Source: Candidatus Micrarchaeota archaeon (GTDB lineage Archaea > Micrarchaeota > Micrarchaeia > Norongarragalinales > WALN01). From it: a stretch of 35,117 bases of DNA. The stretch spans positions 1 to 35,117 of the forward strand of contig WALN01000064.1 in assembly GCA_015522865.1 (NCBI GenBank). The letters are read 5' to 3'. Under the pieces are notes generated by a model. It did no database searches, was not told where the DNA came from, and saw only the letters and a program-made list of their open reading frames with translations. Every line of letters begins with the position of its first letter. The first letter of the stretch is position 1. The position numbers and the translations under genes were made by a program. This document shows positions 1,224-35,117 of the stretch, in pieces.

Positions 1224-2204
1224 ATGCATCTGAGTTTTCTTGTGATTTTGGAAGTATTTTTTGCGTTTTTAATTGCTTATTTTTCTGTTCCTGTACTTAT
1301 ACGAAAAGTTAAACAGAGAGGATTTTTGGCCCCCGATATTTACAAACCTAAACACCCCAAAATTCCCGAACTTGGAGGTTTAGCTATTTTTATTGGCTAT
1401 ATTTTACCACTTCTCTTTGTTCTTCCTTTTATCCCATATCTGGACCAATATCACCTACTTGCAGTTATCGCCACTGTAATTTTAGTTGAGCTTATAGGTA
1501 TTATAGATGATATTTTTGCTATACGCCAAAGCGTGAAAGTCATCCTTCCACTTTTCGCTGCGATACCACTTATGGTAACAGAAGCAGGAACAAGTTCAAT
1601 GTTTTTTCCACTTATTGGAACTGTAAATTTTGGAATATTCTATGCTCTAATTTTAATTCCAATCGGCATAACTGCAGCCGCGAACTTAACAAATATGCTC
1701 GCTGGCTTTAATGGGCTGGAAGCAGGCAACGGGTTCATTGCTGTTCTAACTGTTGCAGTTGCAGCATTGTTACTTGGACATATGGAAACAGTAGTTATTC
1801 TTGCCCCGCTTTTAGGTGCTTTGCTCGCTTTCCTCAAATATAATTGGTACCCTGCTAAAATATTTCCTGGAGACTGCGGAACTTTGCTGATTGGGACGGT
1901 AATAGCAAGCGCGGTAATAGTTGGGAATATGGAGCTGGTTGGCGTGCTTTCCCTTTCCCTTTACATTTTTAACTTCCTTTTGTTTATTTTCATAGTTAAC
2001 AAATATTCTCCGAAGTATAAATTTGGAAAAGTTGACAGCAAAGGGTATATTCATCCACCCGCCAAGGAGTATTTTTATTCGCTCTATTTTCTTATAGCCA
2101 AATACAAAAAAGTGAAAGAAAAAGATATCGTAAAAATTATACTGAAACTTCAGTTGCTTGTTTCCCTGGCTGTTGTTTTATGGGTCTGCTCTCTCGTTTG
2201 GTAA
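1224..2204 (+). CDS. Glycosyltransferase family 4: UDP-GlcNAc:dolichyl-phosphate GlcNAc-1-phosphate transferase (AglH/Alg7/MraY-WecA family)
   Basis: Polytopic membrane protein with the IIDD motif and NLTNMLAGFNGLEAG motif characteristic of the family, and WYPAKIFPGD near the C-terminal part. Confidence 0.8.
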   Translation: MHLSFLVILEVFFAFLIAYFSVPVLIRKVKQRGFLAPDIYKPKHPKIPELGGLAIFIGYILPLLFVLPFIPYLDQYHLLAVIATVILVELIGIIDDIFAIRQSVKVILPLFAAIPLMVTEAGTSSMFFPLIGTVNFGIFYALILIPIGITAAANLTNMLAGFNGLEAGNGFIAVLTVAVAALLLGHMETVVILAPLLGALLAFLKYNWYPAKIFPGDCGTLLIGTVIASAVIVGNMELVGVLSLSLYIFNFLLFIFIVNKYSPKYKFGKVDSKGYIHPPAKEYFYSLYFLIAKYKKVKEKDIVKIILKLQLLVSLAVVLWVCSLVW

Positions 2205-2211
2205 TATTATT

Positions 2212-3219
2212 TTAGAGTGTAATAAAAGCTATTGAAAAAATAGCAAATAAGATTTGAATTAGCCATAATGAATATACTATTTGTTTCTCATTTAAGTTGA
2301 AGTATTTCATTAGTACATGGGAAAGCGAATAAATTTTTCCGTTATATTTTAAATTTTTGTTCTTATCCAACCTCCCGAAATTTTCTGCTTGAAATTTACT
2401 TCTTGCCTTTAGAAAAAACTCGATAATTTGGGGCCCCATCAATATTATCGCTGCAACTTCTACATTTGCAATTATTGAAATAGTTCCTATTGCTCCTCCT
2501 ATTAAATATGTGAGCGAGTTACCGCCCAAAATTTTCGCTGGATACCAGTTATAAATTAAGAATCCCAAGCATACTGCAACAAGCGCGGTTGATAATAATG
2601 TTCCTATCTGGGAGCCAGCTATAAAGGAAATTAATGCCATAGTGATGCCCGCGATTATTCCAATACCTACTTCCAAACCATTAAACCCTGCCAGTAAATT
2701 AACTAAATTTGAGGAGGCAACTATCCAGAGCGGAATAAAAATTATTGAATATGCAACACCAAAATTTACTACGCCTAAAAACGGTATTAGAATCAATGTA
2801 GAATGAAAAACAGCAATGAGCGGAAGTGATGCAAACAGTGGAAGAAAAACTCTATAAATTTGCTTCATATGAACAAAATCCTCAACAATACCAATAGTTG
2901 CAATCAGAGTAATTGAAAGAATAGCTGCCAAGTAGTAAATTAGTTCTTCTTTTGCTATAAAACTCATAATAATTAAAGCCGTTACAAGAAGAGAGAAGGT
3001 CACTGCTATACCTCCTCCGTTCACCACTCTGTATTTAGCAAATTTTTCCGAATATTCTTCTTTCAGTTTCTTTATCTCTCTCAATGAGAGCTTTTGTGGA
3101 ACTTTGTTTAAATCCACTATGAAAAATTTTCTTTTTTCAAAAGCAGCCAAAACAGCAAAGGTTGAAAATAAAGAAAGTAAAAAAGCAAATAAAAAAATTC
3201 CACAAAGCACTAAACACAT
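2212..3219 (-). CDS. Second glycosyltransferase family 4 GlcNAc-1-P transferase paralog
   Basis: Has VEDF, NLVNLLAGFNGLEVG and WYPAKILGGN motifs parallel to the neighbouring paralog. Convergent with 1224-2204, with only 7 nt between the stops. Confidence 0.8.
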   Translation of the reverse strand: MCLVLCGIFLFAFLLSLFSTFAVLAAFEKRKFFIVDLNKVPQKLSLREIKKLKEEYSEKFAKYRVVNGGGIAVTFSLLVTALIIMSFIAKEELIYYLAAILSITLIATIGIVEDFVHMKQIYRVFLPLFASLPLIAVFHSTLILIPFLGVVNFGVAYSIIFIPLWIVASSNLVNLLAGFNGLEVGIGIIAGITMALISFIAGSQIGTLLSTALVAVCLGFLIYNWYPAKILGGNSLTYLIGGAIGTISIIANVEVAAIILMGPQIIEFFLKARSKFQAENFGRLDKNKNLKYNGKIYSLSHVLMKYFNLNEKQIVYSLWLIQILFAIFSIAFITL

Positions 3220-3266: not shown

Positions 3267-4742
3267 ATGTCATTTAAAAAATTCCTAGAACGTACCGGAG
3301 CAGTCACTTTGTTAAATGTTCTTATGCAGCTTAGAGGTTTGCTCTACTTGCCTGTTCTCTCAAAAATATGGGGGACTTTCTATTACGGAGTTTGGTCGCA
3401 GGTGACTGTTACACTCGGGGTTTTTCTTCCATTTGTTGCGCTTGGAATTCCAACTGCGATGAACAGATTTTTACCAATTAAAAAAGGAAGAGAATTAAGC
3501 AAGGGATTTTATTCTGCTTTTCTAGTAATGTTTCTGAGTTCTATTTTTGTCGGGGCATTGATTTTAATTTTTTCTTCCTCCCTTGCGGCTTATTTCTTTG
3601 GAGGGGCGGCTCAGGCAGTTGTTGTAAAAATAATTACGCTTTTGTTGGCTTCGCTTGTACTCAATCATTCTATTGCCGCTCTATTGCAAGCAAAAAGGAG
3701 GATTAAGTTGTATACCTCCATATCCACAGTTCAGCTGATTATTGAAACTGTTGGTGTAATAGCGATGGTTTTGTTTAATTTTGCAATTGTTCCAGTTCTG
3801 CTCTTCTTAGTTGCAACTAAGATTGTTATTTTTGCTGCTGTTTGGCTCTTCTGGGTCCTCCCAGAAATTGGTATTTCCTACCCGCAATTCTCAATAATGA
3901 AAAAATATCTGAAATTTGGCGTTCCAACTATTTTTGCAGGTTTTGGCTATTGGCTACTAAATGTTGGAGACAGGTACGTTATCGCTTTCTTTAAGGGAGC
4001 CTCTGATGTTGGGATTTATTCTGTGGCTTATAAAACCGGTGCTATTTTACTGCTTGTGATATACGCAATTTACTTTGTATTATTTCCAACTCTTTCGAAG
4101 CTTAGAGATGAAAAACAGTTTAACGAAATAAAAAAATATGTTGCGAGAATATTCAAGCTCTTTATTATATTTTCTCTGCCTGCATTCTTTGGTTTGTTGG
4201 CTCTTTCTCATCCAATTATACGCTCAATCTCAACGATAGAATTTGCATCCAAGAGCGGTCTTGTCGCTCCGATAGTATCGCTCGGTATTCTATTTTATGG
4301 AATATTTTTGTTGTATGCGCTTGTTATTTTAGCTGAAAACAAAACAAAATTGTATGCAAAAATATTGCTTTTGGGCGCTGCAATTAATTTAATCTTAAAT
4401 CTTTGGCTTGTCCCAATTTACGGAATTGAAGCTGCCGCCTGGACTACTTTATTCTCATTTCTCCTTATTGCCATATTGGCCTATTACTTTGCTCCAAATT
4501 ACTGCAAAACGAAGATGAAATTTGTTTATATGCTTAAATCATTTATTGCGTCTTTGTTGATGTACTTTGCAATTTCTTTGTTTAATTTGCAGTATGTAAG
4601 ATGGTATGGCGTGTTGGCAGTAGTTGCTCTTGGGGCATTAGTATATTTGTTTTTCGTATGGCTGCTCAGAGTTTTTGACAAGAAAGAGCAGCAATTTATT
4701 TTTTCTCTTTTAGCTGCAATTACCTCTAAATTTTCCAGATAG
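3267..4742 (+). CDS. Polysaccharide/oligosaccharide flippase (MOP superfamily, Wzx/RfbX-like)
   Basis: 491 aa with about 12-14 predicted TM helices and the typical N-terminal LLNVLMQLRGLLYLPVLSK segment. Lies next to the GT4 genes. Confidence 0.7.
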   Translation: MSFKKFLERTGAVTLLNVLMQLRGLLYLPVLSKIWGTFYYGVWSQVTVTLGVFLPFVALGIPTAMNRFLPIKKGRELSKGFYSAFLVMFLSSIFVGALILIFSSSLAAYFFGGAAQAVVVKIITLLLASLVLNHSIAALLQAKRRIKLYTSISTVQLIIETVGVIAMVLFNFAIVPVLLFLVATKIVIFAAVWLFWVLPEIGISYPQFSIMKKYLKFGVPTIFAGFGYWLLNVGDRYVIAFFKGASDVGIYSVAYKTGAILLLVIYAIYFVLFPTLSKLRDEKQFNEIKKYVARIFKLFIIFSLPAFFGLLALSHPIIRSISTIEFASKSGLVAPIVSLGILFYGIFLLYALVILAENKTKLYAKILLLGAAINLILNLWLVPIYGIEAAAWTTLFSFLLIAILAYYFAPNYCKTKMKFVYMLKSFIASLLMYFAISLFNLQYVRWYGVLAVVALGALVYLFFVWLLRVFDKKEQQFIFSLLAAITSKFSR

Positions 4743-22727: not shown

Positions 22728-22848
22728 GTTTTATTTATAGTCCCGTAGTCTAGTGGCCAAGGATGACAGGCTTTGGACGAAGCTCTCTTTTTCTTGTAAG
22801 AAAAAGAGACCTTCAGGAGAGAAAAAGAACGGGTTGTAGAAGACCTTC

Positions 22849-22912
22849 AGGAGAGAAAAAGAACAAAAATGAAAGAAGAACTTCTTGATGCAGCTTCTTT
22901 CTAAGAAGCTGC
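22849..22912 (+). repeat. 64-nt intra-intron direct repeat, copy 1
   Basis: aggagagaaaaagaacaaaaatgaaagaagaacttcttgatgcaGcttctttctaagaagCtgc is 62/64 identical to 23027-23090. The shorter repeat gaccttcaggagagaaaaagaac also occurs at 22808-22830 and 22842-22864. Confidence 0.9.
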
Positions 22913-22960
22913 TTTGGAACATCTTAGTACTTTCTTTCTTCTTAAGAAAGAAAGGACCAG
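22912..22960 (+). repeat. 49-nt module shared with the tRNA-His downstream repeats
   Basis: ctttggaacatcttagtactttctttcttcttaagaaagaaaggaccag matches 34938-34986 and 35038-35086 at 47/49 positions. Confidence 0.9.
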
Positions 22961-22990
22961 CACCTCTCTTAAAAAGAGAGCTGCACCAGA

Positions 22991-23025
22991 GAACTTCTTG
23001 ATGCAACTTCTTTCTAAGAAGTTGC
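22991..23025 (+). repeat. Partial (35-nt) third copy of the hairpin part of the 64-nt repeat
   Basis: gaacttcttgatgcaacttctttctaagaagttgc is identical to 23056-23090. Confidence 0.9.
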
Positions 23026-23026
23026 T

Positions 23027-23090
23027 AGGAGAGAAAAAGAACAAAAATGAAAGAAGAACTTCTTGATGCAACTTCTTTCTAAGAAGTTGC
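23027..23090 (+). repeat. 64-nt intra-intron direct repeat, copy 2
   Basis: See copy 1. It differs only at 23071 (A versus G22893) and 23087 (T versus C22909), which are the two partners of one stem base pair. Confidence 0.9.
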
Positions 23091-23170
23091 GGAGAAACCT
23101 GTAGACGCCGGTTCGAATCCGGTCGGGACTATTTAAAGAATAATGGTGAAATAATATAGGTGAGATTGAA

Positions 23171-30311: not shown

Positions 30312-31595
30312 TTAAATTTGCCTTTTTTGTGATTTTAAATACTCTATTATGCTGTCTAAGCTTAACATTTTTTCTTCGCCGGTTTTCATATTCTTCAATT
30401 TTAACTTGTTTTCTTCGATCTCTTTTTTTCCCATAATTGCTACGTACGGGATGTCTCTCTTTGATGCATAGTCTAAATTTTTTGAGATCCCCCTGTCCAT
30501 TAAATCGATGTCCGCATTTATTTCTTCACTTCTCAACTTTTCGGTTACTTCTAGTGCTGTGTTAAATGTTTTGATGGGTATTACGAAAACTTTTATTTTC
30601 GTTTTCTTTTTGTATTTTCCTCCAAGCGCTTCGCATATTCTTTCAGTTCCAAAACTTATTCCGACTGCGGGATATTCTCCCCTACCAATAAATTTCCCAA
30701 TCATTCGATTATATCTTCCGCCAGATGCTACTGCTGTTTTTACCTCAGAATTTTTCAAAAAAGTTTCAAAAATTGTCGAAGTGTAATAGCTCAGCCCTCT
30801 TGCAAGGGATAAGTCAATTTTTATATTTTTCAACGACAATATTTTTACAAAACTCAGCAAATTTTCCAGCTCCGTCACCCCCTCCTTTCCTTCGTCATTT
30901 AAATTCAACTTTTTCAGCTTCTGTAAAATTTCATCGTTTTCTCCGACAATTTCAAATAAAGAAAATAATTTTTCAATTACTTTTTTCGGAACTTCTTTAT
31001 TTTTCAGCTCGTCTTCAACCTCCTTTTTGCCGATTTTTTCGAGTTTGTCTATTGAGAGAATCACACTTTCTGCTTTCTCGTTTTCTACGCCCGCGTATTT
31101 TACAAGCCCATTGAGTAGTTTTCTGTTGTTAAGTTTTATTTCAAACTCCAAACCTATTCTCTTGAACACCTCGAACGTAAGCGCCAGTATCTCTGCTTCT
31201 GCTTTCATACTTTTTACTCCAATAATGTCTGCATCGCATTGCGTGAACTCTCTTAATCTGGTTGAGGAAACCGGTCCGTCTCTCCACGCTTCGCCAATCT
31301 GGTAACGCTTGAACGGCAATTTTAAATTCGGATTTTCTTTGATATAACGAGCAAGCGGAACAGTCAGGTCATATCTCAGGCCCAATTTTCTTCTTCCCTG
31401 GTCCTCTAATTTATATGTTTCTTTCAGAATTTCTTCGCCGCCCCCATATTTCGACGCAAGTGTTTCCCACTTTTCCAGAGCAGGCGTTTTAATTGGAACA
31501 TACCCGTATTTCTCAAAAATATTTTTTATAATTTTGATTAGCTCTTGCCTCTGAAATTCTTCCTCTGGCCCGTAGTCTCTGAATCCTTTCAACAT
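30312..31595 (-). CDS. hisS: Histidyl-tRNA synthetase
   Basis: MLKGFRDY.., LRYDLTVPLARY, FKRYQIGEAWRDG, GGRY and GISFG motifs. Start set at the first ATG; the track start at 31607 is a TTG. Confidence 0.9.
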   Translation of the reverse strand: MLKGFRDYGPEEEFQRQELIKIIKNIFEKYGYVPIKTPALEKWETLASKYGGGEEILKETYKLEDQGRRKLGLRYDLTVPLARYIKENPNLKLPFKRYQIGEAWRDGPVSSTRLREFTQCDADIIGVKSMKAEAEILALTFEVFKRIGLEFEIKLNNRKLLNGLVKYAGVENEKAESVILSIDKLEKIGKKEVEDELKNKEVPKKVIEKLFSLFEIVGENDEILQKLKKLNLNDEGKEGVTELENLLSFVKILSLKNIKIDLSLARGLSYYTSTIFETFLKNSEVKTAVASGGRYNRMIGKFIGRGEYPAVGISFGTERICEALGGKYKKKTKIKVFVIPIKTFNTALEVTEKLRSEEINADIDLMDRGISKNLDYASKRDIPYVAIMGKKEIEENKLKLKNMKTGEEKMLSLDSIIEYLKSQKRQI

Positions 31596-31712
31596 GTTAC
31601 CACACAAATTATGAATTAGTTATTTAAATAATTGATTAGGCAACTAATAATTTCCCTGTTTATATTTTGTGCAGCGCAGTTAATTATTTAACTAAAATTT
31701 AAGTAATGGAAT

Positions 31713-33185
31713 TTGGGGGATACTATCAAATATATTTATGTAGCAGGGCAGCGCAAAACGTTAATTGCCACTTTTCTGAAAAAGGGTACCTTTACGGCTT
31801 CGTATGCCTACTTCAACAACAACGTCGAACCAAATTTCATAATTTTTAGGCACAATTTAAATGCAGAGTACTGGGTGCCGGAATCTGAGGTGCTCAGGAT
31901 GAACAAATTCGGAGAAAAATACTTGGGCCGTCGGTTTACTGAGAGCATATTAAATAAAGTTAAGCTGAATGTTAATGCTGCATGGAAGATGGTGGAAAAA
32001 TTAAATAGGCTTGAATTTTCTGCGCTATCTAACGCAAAGCTTATTGAGTTATTTTCCCAAATAAATTCAATACTTTTGCAGCTGATGGGCGATTTATTTT
32101 TATCGCAGGATTTTTATACTAAAGCAGTGGAGGAGCGGCTCATCTCTTTGCTCTCGTCCAAATTCAAAGACAGGAAAAAAGTTGATTATTATCTAGGAAT
32201 TTTACTTAAAGATTATGATTTGGATGCAATCCAACGCGAAGAGATAGATTGGTATAATTATGTGCTGAACCACAAAAATATAAAACGTGAGGAACTGATG
32301 AGTTATGTTTTGCGCAATGGATGGATGATTTATAATGCATTTGATTATGAAACTGCGTACAATTTTATATTGGAGAGATATAGAAAGACTGAAAATATGG
32401 GCGAGAAAGAAATTCAAAAGAGAATTAAAAATATTCTGCTCAATAAACAAAAAGCCAGAGAAGAATTTAATGCTCAAAGCGAAAAACTTACCCCCAAAAT
32501 GCTTGAGTTAGCTACCATCTTGCGGGATTTAGCTAAGAACAGGCTCGAAGTGAAATTGGCTACGAATTCCTTAGAAGTCGCTCTAAACCTCAAATTATTG
32601 TATTTCCTTTCCAAAAAATTTAACTTAAATTTCTGTGATTTGTTGGATGGATATTTGCCTGGAGATATAAGGAAGTTGTTGGAAAGTGGCTTTCGTGTTT
32701 CTGGTGATAAAATTAAGAGACGGAAGGAGTTCGTCTCGTTTGTTCAAATTAACGGAAAATTTGATGTTGCGAGCGGTAATGACGCTATGAATAAAATTGA
32801 TAATTTATTAAGTAGTTCGAGACCAAAGAAAGAGCAGAAAGTGCTGAAAGGTAATGTTGCTTCTATTGGCAGTCCCTCAGTTGTAACTGCTACCGCAAGG
32901 ATAATACGTTTGGGAAATGATTCCGAGTTGAGAGAAGACATAAACAGATTTCAAAAAGGCGAAATAATCGTTACTATTATGACTCAGCCCAATATGGTCC
33001 CAATAATGAAAAAAGCTGCAGCGGTTATTACTGACGAAGGAGGCATATGCAGCCACGCAGCTATTATTTCCAGAGAATTTAACATCCCATGTATAGTAGG
33101 AACAAGGGCAGCAACAAAAATTATAAAAAATGGCGACAAAGTCACAATAGACACTTCAGAAGGAATTGTCAGAATTATAAAATAG
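31713..33185 (+). CDS. PEP-utilizer swivel (phosphohistidine) domain protein with an uncharacterised ~390-aa helical N-terminal region
   Basis: The C-terminal ~100 aa read ..GEIIVTIMTQPNMVPIMKKAAAVITDEGGICSHAAIISREFNIPCIVGT.., the PEP-utilizing enzyme mobile domain with the catalytic His. No ATP-grasp (PPDK_N) domain or PEP/pyruvate TIM barrel is visible. TTG start. Confidence 0.7.
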   Translation: MGDTIKYIYVAGQRKTLIATFLKKGTFTASYAYFNNNVEPNFIIFRHNLNAEYWVPESEVLRMNKFGEKYLGRRFTESILNKVKLNVNAAWKMVEKLNRLEFSALSNAKLIELFSQINSILLQLMGDLFLSQDFYTKAVEERLISLLSSKFKDRKKVDYYLGILLKDYDLDAIQREEIDWYNYVLNHKNIKREELMSYVLRNGWMIYNAFDYETAYNFILERYRKTENMGEKEIQKRIKNILLNKQKAREEFNAQSEKLTPKMLELATILRDLAKNRLEVKLATNSLEVALNLKLLYFLSKKFNLNFCDLLDGYLPGDIRKLLESGFRVSGDKIKRRKEFVSFVQINGKFDVASGNDAMNKIDNLLSSSRPKKEQKVLKGNVASIGSPSVVTATARIIRLGNDSELREDINRFQKGEIIVTIMTQPNMVPIMKKAAAVITDEGGICSHAAIISREFNIPCIVGTRAATKIIKNGDKVTIDTSEGIVRIIK

Positions 33186-33191
33186 TTTCAG

Positions 33192-34700
33192 TCACCTGCT
33201 TTTTATAATTCTTACAACGCCATTATTTGCATCCACCTCTACAAATTTTCCGTCTTTCAAAATTGATGTTGCTATTTTTGTTCCCATAACGCACGGTATG
33301 CCCAAAGCCTTTGAAATTAATGCGGCGTGGCAGGTAACCCCATTTAAATCAGTTACAATTGCTGACGCTTTCATCATAGCGGGCAATATATTTGGGTCTG
33401 TTTGGTAGGCTACAAGTATATCGCCTTTTTTCATTTTTTTCATTTCTTTAGGGTCTTCTATTATTTTCGCTACTCCCCTTACTTTGCCCGGATATGCACA
33501 CAGTCCACTTAAAAATTTCGTTTTTCTTTTTTTCTCTTTTTTTATGTTTATTTTCTCCATGAATTTTCTTGCTTTTTTTCCAGTCAGCCATTTTTCTCCC
33601 TTTTGGGTAAAATCTCCAACAGTGTATTTGAGCCTTTCATTAAGCTCTTTCCTTGAAAATTTTCTTTTGAGTATCGCATCCCTCATCTCGAATGGGCTGA
33701 TCACGCGCATCTGCTCCAAATTCAGCCCGGCTCTTTTTCCCATTTCTCTAAGAAGAGATTCTGTTGCATAATATCCATAGAACATTGCATCTTTTCTGAA
33801 AGCTTTTATTGAAATTATTTTTCTTGCCTGTTCAAAAAGCAACTGATGTTTCTTGTCTATGCCAATTGTTCTTGTGTAGTGTTCCTGCATTTTCTTAATT
33901 CTCAAAGGAGTCCGTTCCATTTTTTTGACCATTTTTTGTACGTCTATATCCTGAGAAATTAAATCTACCAGTCGCTCAATAATCATCTTTTTGTTCCAAG
34001 CAGGGCCTTTGTATTCATATCCTATCCAACCAAATTTTTCCACATGCTCTTCGATTTCCTTTCCGGCTATCCTGTTTATTCTTTTTTCAATCTCTTTTTT
34101 TGTCCTTTTGTCTCTAATTGTATTTTTGAGTTTGTTGGCAATCTTCAAAATATTTTGTTCTTCTTTTCTTTCAATACTTTCTTCTGTGGGCGTACTTAGT
34201 ATTGCGTATACTTCCTCTACTCCATATTTTAATCCCTTCCTTTTTATCTGCTGCGAAAGGTATTTTTTGAGATGAGTAGATAATAGATGATCCTTAATTT
34301 CTATAATGAACGGAACGATTCCCGGCAGTATTGCTTCCTGATTAGCTTTCCAGAACCTTTCATATAATTTTATGAGCTTTTCATCAGAGTATTGTGGCAT
34401 ATTCATTTTATAAATCGCTCTAGAAACCTTAAATAAATTTTTAGCATTTTTGAAATGTATTTTATGTAATTTATCGAACCATGCAAGATTATTTAACATT
34501 TTTCTAAAAGCATATTTTTCTTTGCTCTCGAATTCTTTTTTATCTAGAAAATAATTCGAGTTTCCCTTTTTTATTTCTATTATAAACTCTCTGAACAAAG
34601 GTATGCTTACTATGTTTAGCCTGCGGGTGAAAAGATACGCAGAATAGGCATGCATAAAAACTTCTCTTCTAACTTTTAATATCGCAATCCATTCTTTCAT
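33192..34700 (-). CDS. Paralogous PEP-utilizer swivel domain protein
   Basis: C-terminal ..GDILVAYQTDPNILPAMMKASAIVTDLNGVTCHAALISKALGIPCVMGT... The N-terminal region is collinear with 31713-33185 (for example YSDEKLIKLY versus LSNAKLIELF, and FGWIGYEY versus NGWMIYNAF). Confidence 0.7.
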   Translation of the reverse strand: MKEWIAILKVRREVFMHAYSAYLFTRRLNIVSIPLFREFIIEIKKGNSNYFLDKKEFESKEKYAFRKMLNNLAWFDKLHKIHFKNAKNLFKVSRAIYKMNMPQYSDEKLIKLYERFWKANQEAILPGIVPFIIEIKDHLLSTHLKKYLSQQIKRKGLKYGVEEVYAILSTPTEESIERKEEQNILKIANKLKNTIRDKRTKKEIEKRINRIAGKEIEEHVEKFGWIGYEYKGPAWNKKMIIERLVDLISQDIDVQKMVKKMERTPLRIKKMQEHYTRTIGIDKKHQLLFEQARKIISIKAFRKDAMFYGYYATESLLREMGKRAGLNLEQMRVISPFEMRDAILKRKFSRKELNERLKYTVGDFTQKGEKWLTGKKARKFMEKINIKKEKKRKTKFLSGLCAYPGKVRGVAKIIEDPKEMKKMKKGDILVAYQTDPNILPAMMKASAIVTDLNGVTCHAALISKALGIPCVMGTKIATSILKDGKFVEVDANNGVVRIIKSR

Positions 34701-34751: not shown

Positions 34752-34766
34752 TAATTTAAACTTTTA
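34752..34766 (+). promoter_or_regulatory. TATA-like element taatttaaactttta about 27 nt upstream of tRNA-His
   Basis: Position and composition only. Confidence 0.3.
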
Positions 34767-34783
34767 TCTCGCAATGATTATGT

Positions 34784-34906
34784 GGCGGCGATGGTGCAGT
34801 GGTTAACATCTCGGACTGTGGATCCGAGGACCCGAGAAGCCTTTCTTTCTGAAGAAAGAAATCCTTGGGAAAGAAAGACAAGGGAATTCGAGTCTCGGTC
34901 GCCGCC
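34784..34906 (+). tRNA. tRNA-His (anticodon GTG at 34818-34820) with encoded G-1 and a 50-nt intron in the T-arm (between positions 53 and 54); CCA not encoded
   Basis: Eight-bp acceptor including G-1:C73 (GGCGGCGA / TCGCCGCC), T8, A14, anticodon stem TCGGA/TCCGA, loop CTGTGGA. The T-stem CCGAG (34832-34836) is separated from T-loop TTCGAGT plus CTCGG (34887-34898) by 34837-34886. Confidence 0.75.
34837..34886 (+). other. Non-canonical tRNA-His intron (position 53/54)
   Basis: aagcctttctttctgaagaaagaaatccttgggaaagaaagacaagggaa contains a CTTTCTTTC/GAAAGAAAG-type hairpin (34842-34861) of the same family as in the 49-nt module. Confidence 0.7.
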
Positions 34907-34937
34907 CTTAGCTCTCATTCTATTCTTAGCATTCTTT

Positions 34938-34986
34938 CTTTGGAACAACTTAGTACTTTCTTTCTTTTTAAGAAAGAAAGGACCAG
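34938..34986 (+). repeat. 49-nt shared module, His repeat unit 1
   Basis: ctttggaacaacttagtactttctttctttttaagaaagaaaggaccag is 47/49 identical to 22912-22960. Contains an 11-bp hairpin at 34956-34980. Confidence 0.9.
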
Positions 34987-35037
34987 TTCGAGTCTCGGTC
35001 GCCGCCCTTAGCTCTCATTCTATTCTTAGCATTCTTT

Positions 35038-35086
35038 CTTTGGAACAACTTAGTACTTTCTTTCTTTTTAAGAAAGAAAGGACCAG
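35038..35086 (+). repeat. 49-nt shared module, His repeat unit 2
   Basis: Identical to 34938-34986. Confidence 0.9.
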
Positions 35087-35117
35087 TTCGAGTCTCGGTC
35101 GCCGCCCTTAGCTCTCA

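What the first reader, a model, noticed from the sequence alone, without database searches (positions are those of the whole stretch)
34887..35117. The tRNA-His 3' exon is tandemly repeated with an exact 100-bp period, running off the window end
The last 20-21 nt of tRNA-His (T-loop, 3' T-stem strand, 3' acceptor strand, C73) plus 79-80 nt of downstream sequence are repeated head to tail. Copies lie at 34887-34986 and 34987-35086, with a truncated copy at 35087-35117, and I saw no mismatch between them. Each extra 3' exon is preceded by ggaccag, a degenerate echo of the variable-loop and T-stem string ggacccgag that precedes the intron in the real gene. Four readings are possible. The copies could be alternative or spare 3' exons for cis or trans splicing, comparable to split and tri-split archaeal tRNAs that share a 3' half. 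They could be scars of repeated integration or excision at a tRNA att site. They could be slippage amplification of the hairpin module. Or they could be a collapsed or expanded repeat at a contig end.
Basis: seen in the sequence. Interest (0 to 1): 0.8.

Follow-up and report, generated by a model that had tools for sequence, protein, structure and literature searches.

The report
Tandem repeat of tRNA-His 3' end
In a small AT-rich archaeal genome, the last 21 bases of an intron-split tRNA-His gene plus 79 bases downstream are duplicated head to tail; the extra copies look like non-functional by-products of an unstable local duplication that assemblers cannot resolve, not spare gene parts.

Summary
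Positions 34887-35117 hold 2.3 exact copies of a 100-bp unit that starts at the 3' splice site of a tRNA-His(GTG) gene with a 50-nt intron at position 53/54. The window end is a contig end.

Four other contigs of the same species bear on it. An NCBI MAG contig stops 227 nt into the repeat. A Logan contig stops 30 nt in. The neighbouring MAG contig enters from downstream through a diverged terminal unit (S2 + A', 'TTCAAATCTCGG...'). An ENA scaffold passes straight through with that unit only. Beyond it lie an orphan ORF, SHMT and ThyX, with no integrase.

The real locus is therefore intron-A-(S1-A)n-S2-A'-unique with n>=1, and the copy number is not measurable from assemblies.

The unit is composite: 21 nt of tRNA, a 30-nt trailer and a 49-nt hairpin module. 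That module is 47/49 identical to a piece of a 320-nt intron in a previously undetected tRNA-Gln 12 kb upstream. So 'ggaccag' is the module's end, not an echo of the T-stem.

Only the first copy has bulge-helix-bulge pairing with the 5' splice site (3/4 + 2 bp; extra copies 0/4). Best reading: unstable tandem duplication producing pseudo-3'-halves. Moderately interesting.

The parts
34755..34760 (+). TTTAAA, a TATA-box-like element about 27 nt upstream of the tRNA-His 5' end (candidate archaeal promoter)
   Evidence: Read directly from the sequence. The spacing is typical of archaeal promoters by established knowledge. Function was not tested.
34784..34836 (+). tRNA-His(GTG) 5' exon: encoded G-1 through position 53 (5' strand of the T-stem)
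   Evidence: Rfam tRNA hit 34785-34906; the spliced construct gives ARAGORN tRNA-His(gtg).
34837..34886 (+). 50-nt intron at non-canonical position 53/54. It contains a CTTTCTTTCT-GAAG-AAAGAAA hairpin homologous to the module M hairpin.
   Evidence: The 57-nt block in the Rfam alignment is the 7-nt T-loop plus 50 nt. BHB geometry gives H 3/4 plus h 2 bp, with background probability 0.0088. The BHB-constrained fold is -46.0 against an MFE of -48.0 kcal/mol. Hairpin similarity to M scores 30 against shuffles of 11 +/- 2.3, 0 of 2000.
34887..34907 (+). A1: the functional 3' exon (positions 54-73 plus C74). It is also the first 21 nt of repeat unit 1.
   Evidence: It is the only copy with BHB-compatible upstream sequence (..AAGGGAA|TTC).
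34887..34986 (+). Repeat unit 1 (100 bp) = A (21) + L (30) + M (49)
   Evidence: TRF; blastn of the unit against the window.
34908..34937 (+). L: 30-nt tRNA trailer, unique to this locus
   Evidence: No significant match elsewhere in the window. It is identical in L001, L002 and L006.
34938..34986 (+). M: 49-nt hairpin module (11-bp stem CUUUCUUUCUU / AAGAAAGAAAG, T5 in and around the loop) ending in GGACCAG
   Evidence: 47/49 identical to 22912-22960. Fold. Two compensatory changes relative to M' in L001.
34987..35086 (+). Repeat unit 2, 100% identical to unit 1. It contains pseudo-3'-exon A2 (34987-35007) and the second M (35038-35086).
   Evidence: BHB test for A2: H 0/4.
35087..35117 (+). 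Truncated unit 3 (A3 plus 10 nt of L), cut by the contig end
   Evidence: The contig end is inferred.
22739..23131 (+). Related locus: tRNA-Gln(UUG) with a 320-nt intron (22777-23096) at 37/38, built from repeated hairpin modules. It includes a copy of M at 22912-22960.
   Evidence: The spliced construct gives ARAGORN tRNA-Gln(ttg), 73 nt. BHB H 4/4 plus h 5 bp. Internal repeat families D1 and D2 and hairpins I1-I3. Fold z-score -6.9. M copy.

Best explanation
The feature is an unstable tandem duplication at the 3' end of an intron-containing tRNA-His gene in a divergent DPANN archaeon (Woesearchaeota/Nanoarchaeota-like). The real locus reads: 5' exon, 50-nt intron, A, then (S1-A) repeated n times, then S2, A', then unique DNA. 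A is the 21-nt tRNA 3' end. S1 is a 79-nt spacer made of a 30-nt trailer and a 49-nt hairpin module M. S2-A' is an older terminal copy about 13% diverged. An early duplication copied the intron hairpin together with the 3' exon. Later, unequal recombination or replication slippage between the A copies (helped by the hairpin) produced the exact 100-bp units. Only the first A is joined to the 5' exon by the archaeal splicing endonuclease. The downstream copies are pseudo-3'-halves with no role in making tRNA-His. Transcription from the tRNA promoter probably stops at the T5 tract in the first M hairpin. Short-read assemblers cannot count the units, so contigs end there.

Shown: the repeat, its composite anatomy, the diverged exit unit, the downstream flank, the contig breaks, and the lack of BHB pairing for extra copies. 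Inferred: the recombination or slippage mechanism, the order of events, and termination at T5.
For: Exact 100-bp period over 231 nt. Independent contigs of the same species (99.8-100% identical over 5-12 kb) behave as follows. L002 (NCBI GCA_027007975.1 contig ...016) ends 227 nt into the exact repeat. L003 (Logan; I recall k=31, which is not a tool result) ends 30 nt in, which would be k-1, where a graph branch caused by an S1-tail/A junction falls. L006 (contig ...015 of the same MAG) begins at base 6 of an A copy and runs through Sc-S2-A' into unique DNA. L001 (ENA scaffold) reads intron-A-S2-A'-unique. L001 and L002 share the same 9 SNPs against the window, so they are one strain with two assembly paths. 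A model genome with n>=1 explains all pieces at k<=55. At k>=77 the window and L002 need n>=2 and L001 needs n=0. The downstream flank is an orphan 182-aa ORF, SHMT, ThyX and a GDSL lipase, with no integrase and no further A copy. BHB test: the first copy gives H 3/4 plus h 2 (P=0.0088), A2 gives 0/4 and A' gives 2/4; the tRNA-Gln control gives 4/4 plus 5. The same genome shows local duplication of similar hairpin modules inside the tRNA-Gln intron, so this kind of DNA is prone to duplication here. A relative's tRNA-His (L008) has neither intron nor repeat, so the array is lineage-specific and not conserved.
Against: No reads or long reads were available, so n is unknown. The printed 2.3 copies could be over-traversal of a graph loop. 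The exact repeat begins precisely at the 3' splice site, which a random duplication breakpoint would hit only by chance. I explain this by an older duplication that included intron sequence, because the intron tail and the M' tail are alignable, but that is inference. The two compensatory changes that keep the M hairpin, and the near-identity of M between two tRNA loci 12 kb apart, suggest the module is more than inert filler. A' differs from A only at two permissive T-loop positions, although the sample is too small to prove constraint.
Confidence: 0.6

Rival explanations
1. Module-driven remodelling. The 49-nt hairpin module M (and its relatives in the introns) is a mobile or actively recombining intron-type element. 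It spreads among tRNA loci, as in the 'intron transposition' inferred in Thermoproteales. The tRNA-His array arose because the module copied itself together with the adjacent 3' exon. The locus would then be a snapshot of tRNA gene fragmentation rather than a passive slippage product.
For: M is 47/49 identical between the tRNA-His unit and the tRNA-Gln intron, closer than S1 is to S2 at the same locus. In tRNA-Gln, M interrupts a GCTG|CACC motif that is intact about 30 nt downstream (read from the sequence). The tRNA-His intron carries the same hairpin. The hairpin is kept by two compensatory changes. The 320-nt tRNA-Gln intron is a mosaic of repeated modules. The literature records shared intron sequences among different tRNAs in Thermoproteales (PMC4090602).
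Against: No terminal inverted repeats or target-site duplication were seen. Only about 39 kb of this genome was available, so the copy number of M genome-wide is unknown. There are no matches in viral contigs. The motif is low-complexity (CTTTC/GAAAG), and gene conversion could equally explain the similarity. No mechanism for DNA-level mobility of BHB introns is established.
Confidence: 0.15
2. Attachment-site scars. The first duplicate of the tRNA 3' end was created when an integrative plasmid or virus recombined with the tRNA-His gene (attL/attR). The element was later lost or deleted, leaving closely spaced direct repeats that then amplified.
For: Direct repeats of tRNA 3' ends are the classic footprint of archaeal integrases (SSV1 and pNOB8 types; PMC3293823). 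That paper's model also has a tRNA intron gained from an attP that carried it. The duplicated segment ends at the tRNA 3' end plus 2 nt.
Against: There is no integrase, partitioned int gene or other element gene within 3.5 kb downstream (SHMT, ThyX and an orphan ORF) or in the 35-kb window. No further A copy lies downstream. Only 79-87 nt separate the copies. No viral contig carries the 21-mer. A' is preceded by intron-like sequence, not element sequence.
Confidence: 0.12
3. Spare or alternative 3' exons. The extra copies would be used in cis (long-intron splicing) or in trans (as shared 3' halves, as in split and tri-split tRNAs).
For: Each extra copy is an intact 21-nt 3' exon. The 3' arm of M (AGAAAGAAAGG) is complementary to the 5' part of the intron (CCUUUCUUUCU), so a long precursor could fold the copies near the 5' splice site (read). 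Very long introns evidently are tolerated in this organism, since tRNA-Gln has 320 nt.
Against: BHB geometry gives 0/4 central-helix pairs for A2 and A3 and 2/4 for A', against 3/4 plus 2 for A1. All exact copies would yield the same tRNA, so there is no gain. A T5 tract lies between A1 and A2 in every unit. The TATA-like TTTTTAAG in M sits only about 19 nt upstream of the next copy, too close for a transcript containing the whole exon. No other tRNA 5' halves occur in the window. The arrangement is absent in a relative.
Confidence: 0.04
4. Pure assembly artefact: no genome contains an extra exact copy, and the repeat was invented by the assembler at a contig end.
For: The contig ends in the repeat. 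One scaffold (L001) shows no exact unit. At k<=55 a graph loop can be walked any number of times.
Against: The S1 tail differs from the S2 tail by substitutions and indels, and it is joined to A and then to L again in two differently assembled contigs (the window and L002). An assembler with k>=31 needs real k-mers spanning S1-tail/A/L. The Logan contig stops exactly 30 nt into the repeat, where that junction would create a branch. The same MAG has a separate contig for the exit unit.
Confidence: 0.03

Closest known systems
Archaeal BHB introns at non-canonical positions (e.g. 53/54) cut by broad-specificity (alpha-beta)2 or epsilon2 splicing endonucleases
   Same: The intron lies between positions 53 and 54, a position listed for archaeal tRNAs (PMC4090602). 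Removing it restores a canonical tRNA-His. A relaxed BHB can form, with the 3' site in a 3-nt bulge flanked by 2- and 3-bp helices. T-arm introns and relaxed motifs are accepted by epsilon2 and (alpha-beta)2 enzymes (PMC5829648, PMC12397907).
   Different: The central helix has only 3 of 4 pairs and the 5' bulge is poorly formed. The endonuclease type of this organism is unknown. No known example that I could find has the 3' exon tandemly repeated after the gene.
tRNA gene fragments and intron gain at a polymorphic tRNA-Thr locus in Caldiarchaeum subterraneum (Sugahara et al. 2012, PMC3293823)
   Same: A partial copy of a tRNA lies next to an intron-containing version of the same gene. Different structures of the locus occur among near-identical genomes of one natural population (here).
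   Different: There, the fragment is a 5' piece 1.8 kb away, separated by an element that encodes a recombinase. Here, the copies are 3' pieces 79-87 nt apart in tandem, with no recombinase nearby.
Intron transposition in Thermoproteales (Fujishima et al. 2010, as summarised in PMC4090602)
   Same: Near-identical intron-type sequence is shared between unrelated tRNA genes of one genome: M in the tRNA-Gln intron and at tRNA-His.
   Different: Here one of the two sites is not inside an intron but in the 3' flank or tandem array. The shared piece is a sub-module of a much larger mosaic intron, not a whole intron.
Split and tri-split tRNA genes sharing a 3' half (Nanoarchaeum equitans, Caldivirga maquilingensis)
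   Same: Free-standing copies of a tRNA 3' portion exist apart from the 5' portion.
   Different: The copies are adjacent to an intact cis-spliced gene and identical to its own 3' exon. They lack BHB-forming complementarity. No partner 5' halves were found.
attL/attR direct repeats from integrase-mediated insertion into tRNA genes (SSV1, pNOB8 types)
   Same: A direct repeat of the 3' part of a tRNA gene ending at the tRNA 3' end.
   Different: There is no element between or beside the repeats. The arrangement is tandem with a 100-bp period, and intron-like sequence precedes the copies.

Membership tests
Archaeal BHB-type tRNA intron (non-canonical position 53/54) | Excision restores a canonical cloverleaf tRNA | tested here: met
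   The spliced 34784-34836 + 34887-34907 gives ARAGORN tRNA-His(gtg) with 7/3/5/5-bp stems. The Rfam tRNA hit scores 35.4 bits with the insert in the T-loop.
Archaeal BHB-type tRNA intron (non-canonical position 53/54) | Bulge-helix-bulge (two 3-nt bulges, 4-bp central helix) or an accepted relaxed form at the splice sites | tested here: inconclusive
   The central helix has 3/4 pairs (CCC:GGG plus G.A). The exon helix is 2 bp. The 3' bulge AA|U is well formed, while the 5' site sits in a 5x2 internal loop. The constrained fold is only 2 kcal/mol above the MFE. This is compatible with a relaxed hBH or BHL motif, not with a strict BHB.
Archaeal BHB-type tRNA intron (non-canonical position 53/54) | Host encodes a broad-specificity EndA ((alpha-beta)2 or epsilon2) | not testable with these tools
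   No EndA gene lies in the 35-kb window or in L001. The rest of the genome could not be retrieved.
Split / tri-split tRNA sharing a 3' half | Leader of the 3' half pairs with the trailer or intron of a 5' half to form a BHB at the junction | tested here: not met
   H pairs are 0/4 for the copies after M and 2/4 for A' in L001.
Split / tri-split tRNA sharing a 3' half | Separate 5'-half genes that need this 3' half | tested here: inconclusive
   None occur in the window by sensitive Rfam and T-arm scans. Only about 39 kb of the genome was available.
Integrated-element att duplication at a tRNA gene | Direct repeat of the tRNA 3' portion | tested here: met
Integrated-element att duplication at a tRNA gene | Integrase or element genes between or next to the repeats | tested here: not met
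   The spacing is 79-87 nt. Downstream lie a 182-aa orphan with no Pfam match, SHMT, ThyX, a 116-aa ORF and a GDSL lipase. Upstream lie PEP-utilizer paralogues and HisRS.
Integrated-element att duplication at a tRNA gene | A free element carrying the matching attP | tested here: not met
   No exact match of the 21-mer in IMG/VR viral contigs. Plasmids of this lineage are not represented in any collection searched.
Tandem duplication / VNTR generated by slippage or unequal recombination | Head-to-tail copies with near-perfect identity | tested here: met
   100% identity over 231 nt.
Tandem duplication / VNTR generated by slippage or unequal recombination | Older, diverged unit at the array edge | tested here: met
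   The S2-A' unit in L001 and L006 is about 87% identical to S1-A, with indels.
Tandem duplication / VNTR generated by slippage or unequal recombination | Copy-number differences between closely related genomes | tested here: inconclusive
   L001 needs n=0 and the window and L002 need n>=2 if k>=77. At k<=55 all are walks of one graph with n>=1. The assembler settings are unknown.

The most novel reading that the evidence does not exclude
In this DPANN lineage, short intron-type hairpin modules (the CTTTCTTTC...GAAAGAAAG family, including the 49-nt module M) would be actively proliferating elements that move or recombine between tRNA loci. They would have built a 320-nt mosaic intron in tRNA-Gln, about 2.5 times the 129-nt maximum given in the 2014 review I read. 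At tRNA-His they would have duplicated together with the 3' exon, giving a polymorphic array of 3' halves. On this reading the locus is a live intermediate in the fragmentation of tRNA genes, bearing on the origin of split tRNAs and of intron gain.
Probability: 0.13. Interest if true: 0.75.

Novelty: new variant of a known kind. Interest (0 to 1): 0.42.

Why it matters
How archaeal tRNA genes acquire introns and become split is an old open question. Most evidence is comparative, and only one population-level case was found in the literature searched (Caldiarchaeum tRNA-Thr). This locus offers a second natural case, in a different superphylum. It has a T-arm intron, a tandem and possibly polymorphic array of 3' halves, and an intron-type module shared with a second, grossly expanded tRNA intron.

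It is directly testable with the existing read sets and a PCR. On the practical side, standard tRNA finders miss both genes (ARAGORN default: 0 tRNAs). In intron mode ARAGORN mis-calls a 'tRNA-Val' that uses the second copy as its 3' end. MAG tRNA inventories for such lineages are therefore unreliable.

If the array is only a slippage product, the interest is modest: a minisatellite seeded by a tRNA fragment that breaks assemblies.

Tried and rejected
1. JGI metagenome contigs gave 0 hits for both the S1-tail/A junction and a gapped two-copy pattern. No further contigs crossing the array were obtained that way.

2. The genome-contig scan with the adjacent PEP-utilizer protein returned only an unrelated Desulfocapsa locus.

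3. Viral contigs gave 0 hits for the 21-mer, module M and the tRNA-Gln intron module.

4. Conservation by synteny failed. The PEP-utilizer has no homologue above 39% identity. HisRS relatives (53-56%) have different neighbourhoods. Only one relative showed a nearby tRNA-His, and it is intron-less and unrepeated.

5. Source names for the organism could not be found.

6. The idea that 'ggaccag' echoes the T-stem was rejected.

7. The idea that A' or a later copy is the true 3' exon of a very long intron was rejected on BHB geometry.

8. I tried to infer assembler k from where the contigs stop. The offsets are 30 nt; 227 nt (100+127 or 200+27); 231 nt (100+131 or 200+31); and 50 nt for L006. Only the Logan case has a single reading (k-1, if k=31 as I recall). 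The others are ambiguous and L006 does not fit k=127, so no copy number was derived.

9. I considered arguing that the tRNA-Gln copy of M avoids a T5 run because it sits in an intron. I dropped this because the same intron has another T5 run.

10. The sigma-70 promoter and intrinsic terminator scan was uninformative for an archaeon.
Full report
**1. The observation**

The window ends with 231 nt of perfectly periodic sequence. Tandem Repeats Finder gives 34887-35117, period 100, 2.3 copies, 100% matches and no indels. The 21-mer TTCGAGTCTCGGTCGCCGCCC occurs at 34887, 34987 and 35087 and nowhere else in the window, even with three mismatches; none is expected by chance.

ARAGORN in default mode finds no tRNA in the window. 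Rfam's tRNA model matches 34785-34906 at 35.4 bits (gathering score 29), with a 57-nt block where the 7-nt T-loop should be. Joining 34784-34836 to 34887-34907 in silico gives a textbook tRNA-His(GTG) with an encoded G-1.

The gene therefore has a 50-nt intron (34837-34886) between positions 53 and 54. The repeat starts exactly at the 3' splice site. The longest contig recorded for the adjacent protein is 35,117 nt, so the window end is a contig end.

**2. The organism**

The window is 34-41% G+C. It encodes HisRS, IleRS, an archaeal-type ProRS, SMC, glycolytic enzymes, MraY-like proteins and ribosomal protein S17e. The nearest HisRS homologues are only 53-56% identical. Where named, they are labelled Candidatus Woesearchaeota, Nanoarchaeota or Nanoarchaeia. 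This is a divergent DPANN archaeon. No source gives it a name.

**3. What lies beyond the contig end**

An exact-protein look-up of the adjacent PEP-utilizer gene found three other contigs of the same species. A look-up of the downstream orphan protein found a fourth. All are 99.8-100% identical to the window over 5-12 kb.

| Locus | Source | Behaviour at the array |
|---|---|---|
| L002 | NCBI GCA_027007975.1, contig ...016 | Carries the same exact repeat and ends 227 nt into it |
| L003 | Logan assembly of SRR10312495 | Ends 30 nt into the repeat |
| L006 | Contig ...015 of the same NCBI MAG | Comes from the other side; starts at base 6 of an A copy |
| L001 | ENA scaffold, BioSample SAMN12239303 | Passes straight through |

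- **L003.** From memory, not from a tool result, Logan assemblies use k=31. On that basis 30 nt is k-1, exactly where a de Bruijn branch caused by a second context of the 3' exon would fall.
- **L006.** After base 6 of A it continues through the first 34 nt of the spacer. It then runs through a diverged spacer tail (S2) and a diverged 3'-exon copy, A' = TTCAAATCTCGGTCGCCGCCC. Unique DNA follows.
- **L001.** It reads 5' exon, intron, A, S2, A', then unique DNA.

L001 and L002 share the same nine SNPs against the window. They are one strain assembled along two different paths.

Downstream of A' lie a 182-aa ORF, then SHMT, ThyX, a 116-aa ORF and a GDSL lipase. The 182-aa ORF has no Pfam match and no homologue other than itself among 5.8 billion proteins. 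No integrase and no further copy of the tRNA 3' end lies in those 3.5 kb.

**4. Reconciling the assemblies**

I built model loci of the form upstream-A-(S1-A)n-S2-A'-downstream and asked which contig pieces they contain.

- At k<=55, every piece (window tail, L002 tail, L006 head, L001 junction) is a valid walk through a genome with n>=1. This is because A plus the first 34 nt of the spacer (55 nt) is common to all units.
- At k>=77, the window and L002 need n>=2, and L001 needs n=0.

So either small-k path resolution produced both versions from one genome, or the population contains alleles with different copy numbers.

In either case at least one exact extra unit is real. The S1 tail differs from the S2 tail by several substitutions and indels. 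It is joined to A and then to the trailer again, and an assembler can only report that if k-mers spanning the junction exist in reads.

The printed copy number (2.3) is not a measurement. Trying to back-calculate k from the stopping points (227, 231 and 50 nt) gave ambiguous or inconsistent answers, so I draw nothing from it.

**5. Anatomy of the unit**

The 100-bp unit has three parts:

- **A (21 nt).** tRNA positions 54-73 plus C74.
- **L (30 nt).** A trailer found only here.
- **M (49 nt).** CTTTGGAACAACTTAGTACTTTCTTTCTTTTTAAGAAAGAAAGGACCAG, an 11-bp hairpin.

M is 47/49 identical (E 7.6e-19) to 22912-22960. That region holds a second disrupted tRNA that neither ARAGORN nor Rfam reported. 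It is tRNA-Gln(UUG), 22739-23131, with a 320-nt intron at the canonical 37/38 position.

Three results support the tRNA-Gln call. The spliced product is a clean 73-nt tRNA-Gln. Its splice sites form a full BHB, with a 4/4 central helix and the 5-bp anticodon stem. The precursor folds as a chain of hairpins with z = -6.9.

The intron is a mosaic of repeated modules: a 64-nt family in three copies, a 24-nt family in three copies, and several hairpins. A review gives 11-129 nt as the range for archaeal tRNA introns (PMC4090602).

The 'ggaccag' before each extra 3' exon is therefore simply the end of module M. It is not a remnant of the tRNA-His variable loop and T-stem.

The tRNA-His intron itself carries the same hairpin (CTTTCTTTCT-GAAG-AAAGAAA). 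Its local alignment score is 30 against 11 +/- 2.3 for shuffles, 0 of 2000. Its tail (..GAAAGAAAGACAAGGGAA|TTC) is alignable to the tail of the diverged unit (..GAAAGAAAAGGGCCAGAA|TTC). So the oldest duplication probably included intron sequence as well as the 3' exon.

Between M and the diverged M' the hairpin is kept by two compensatory events. An extra U in the 5' arm is matched by an extra A in the 3' arm. An outer U-A pair is replaced by C-G.

**6. Can the extra copies be used?**

I scored the archaeal bulge-helix-bulge geometry. It needs four nucleotides before the last two of the 5' exon to pair with intron positions -6 to -3. It also needs the exon helix to resume after the first nucleotide of the 3' exon.

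| Candidate 3' site | Central helix pairs | Exon helix |
|---|---|---|
| tRNA-Gln control (37/38) | 4/4 | 5 bp |
| tRNA-His, first copy (A1) | 3/4 | 2 bp |
| Copies after M (A2, A3) | 0/4 | 2 bp |
| A' in L001 | 2/4 | 2 bp |

The A1 combination occurs at only 0.9% of window positions. A fold constrained to this geometry is within 2 kcal/mol of the MFE. Relaxed motifs of this kind are accepted by (alpha-beta)2 and epsilon2 endonucleases (PMC5829648, PMC12397907). Position 53/54 is a documented intron site (PMC4090602).

Several further points argue against use of the extra copies:

- The exact copies would give the same tRNA.
- Each unit has a T5 run between successive copies.
- The TATA-like TTTTTAAG in M is too close (about 19 nt) to the next copy to drive a transcript containing it. 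By contrast, a TTTAAA sits about 27 nt upstream of the real gene.
- No 5' halves or other tRNA pieces occur in the window.

I therefore regard the extra copies as pseudo-3'-halves.

**7. Other origins considered**

The att-scar reading has the right kind of repeat but nothing else. There is no integrase or element, the spacing is only 79-87 nt, and no matching viral contig exists. It remains possible only as a remote origin.

A purely artefactual repeat is excluded by the S1-specific junctions found in independent assemblies.

A more interesting possibility is that M-type modules are themselves mobile or recombinogenic. On that view the tRNA-His array is a by-product of their activity. Three observations point that way:

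- the near-identity of M between two loci 12 kb apart;
- its insertion-like position in a GCTG|CACC motif of the tRNA-Gln intron;
- the compensatory changes that preserve its hairpin.

Against this, only about 39 kb of the genome was available. No element-like termini were seen, and the modules were not found in viral contigs.

**8. Conservation**

No close relatives exist in the collections. The PEP-utilizer's best homologue is 39% identical. The three closest HisRS-bearing contigs have different gene neighbourhoods. One of them (L008) has an uninterrupted 72-nt tRNA-His just upstream of HisG-HisRS, with no downstream repeat. The intron and the array are therefore lineage-specific, which argues against a conserved function.

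**9. Verdict**

The finding is real and correctly located. Its most likely explanation is ordinary in mechanism: an unstable tandem duplication seeded by an older partial duplication, which short-read assemblers cannot resolve.

The setting is less ordinary. It combines a T-arm intron, a possibly polymorphic array of 3' halves, and an intron-type module shared with a 320-nt mosaic intron in a neighbouring tRNA gene. I class it as a new variant of a known kind (tRNA fragments beside disrupted archaeal tRNA genes). Interest is 0.42, with a 13% chance that it reflects active module-driven remodelling of tRNA genes, which would be considerably more interesting.

Noticed in passing
window 22739-23131 (+): Undetected tRNA-Gln(UUG) with a 320-nt intron at 37/38 (intron 22777-23096). 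It has a full BHB (4/4 plus 5 bp) and is built of repeated hairpin modules. That is far longer than the 11-129 nt range quoted for archaeal tRNA introns in the 2014 review. ARAGORN default and Rfam both miss it.
   Followed up: partly
window 34785-35007 (+): ARAGORN with introns allowed mis-calls a 'tRNA-Val(aac)' with a 127-nt intron, using the second repeat copy as the 3' end. It also calls tRNA-Gln a 'tRNA-Stop(tta)'. This is an annotation pitfall for such loci.
   Followed up: yes
window 34782-35111 (+): A 109-aa GTG-initiated ORF runs through the tRNA-His gene and the repeat array. It is almost certainly spurious, but a gene caller could report it.
   Followed up: no
window 30312-31607 (-) and 34784-34907 (+); L008 8889-11275: tRNA-His lies 3 kb from HisRS here. 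In a Woesearchaeota-like relative an intron-less tRNA-His lies directly upstream of HisG-HisRS. tRNA-Gln sits beside S17e and ProRS. Whether linkage of a tRNA with its cognate synthetase is meaningful was not examined.
   Followed up: no
window 31713-33185 (+) and 33192-34700 (-): Two convergent paralogous proteins carry only a C-terminal PEP-utilizer mobile domain. The best homologues are 39% identical or less, and many are labelled Patescibacteria (CPR), which suggests exchange between ultrasmall bacteria and archaea.
   Followed up: no
L001 2988-3536 (+ in locus; reverse strand in window orientation): A 182-aa, highly charged (K/R/E-rich) ORF lies immediately downstream of the array. It has no Pfam match and no homologue other than itself among 5.8 billion proteins.
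   Followed up: partly
window 1224-2204 (+), 2212-3219 (-), 3267-4742 (+): Two divergent MraY-family paralogues lie next to a MurJ/Wzx-like flippase. They score weakly against the archaeal pseudomurein MraY model. This may be a cell-envelope glycan pathway in a DPANN archaeon.
   Followed up: no
window 22912-22960 versus about 22981: Module M in the tRNA-Gln intron splits a GCTG|CACC motif that recurs intact (GCTGCACC) about 30 nt downstream. It looks like an insertion. No target-site duplication or inverted termini were recognised.
   Followed up: partly
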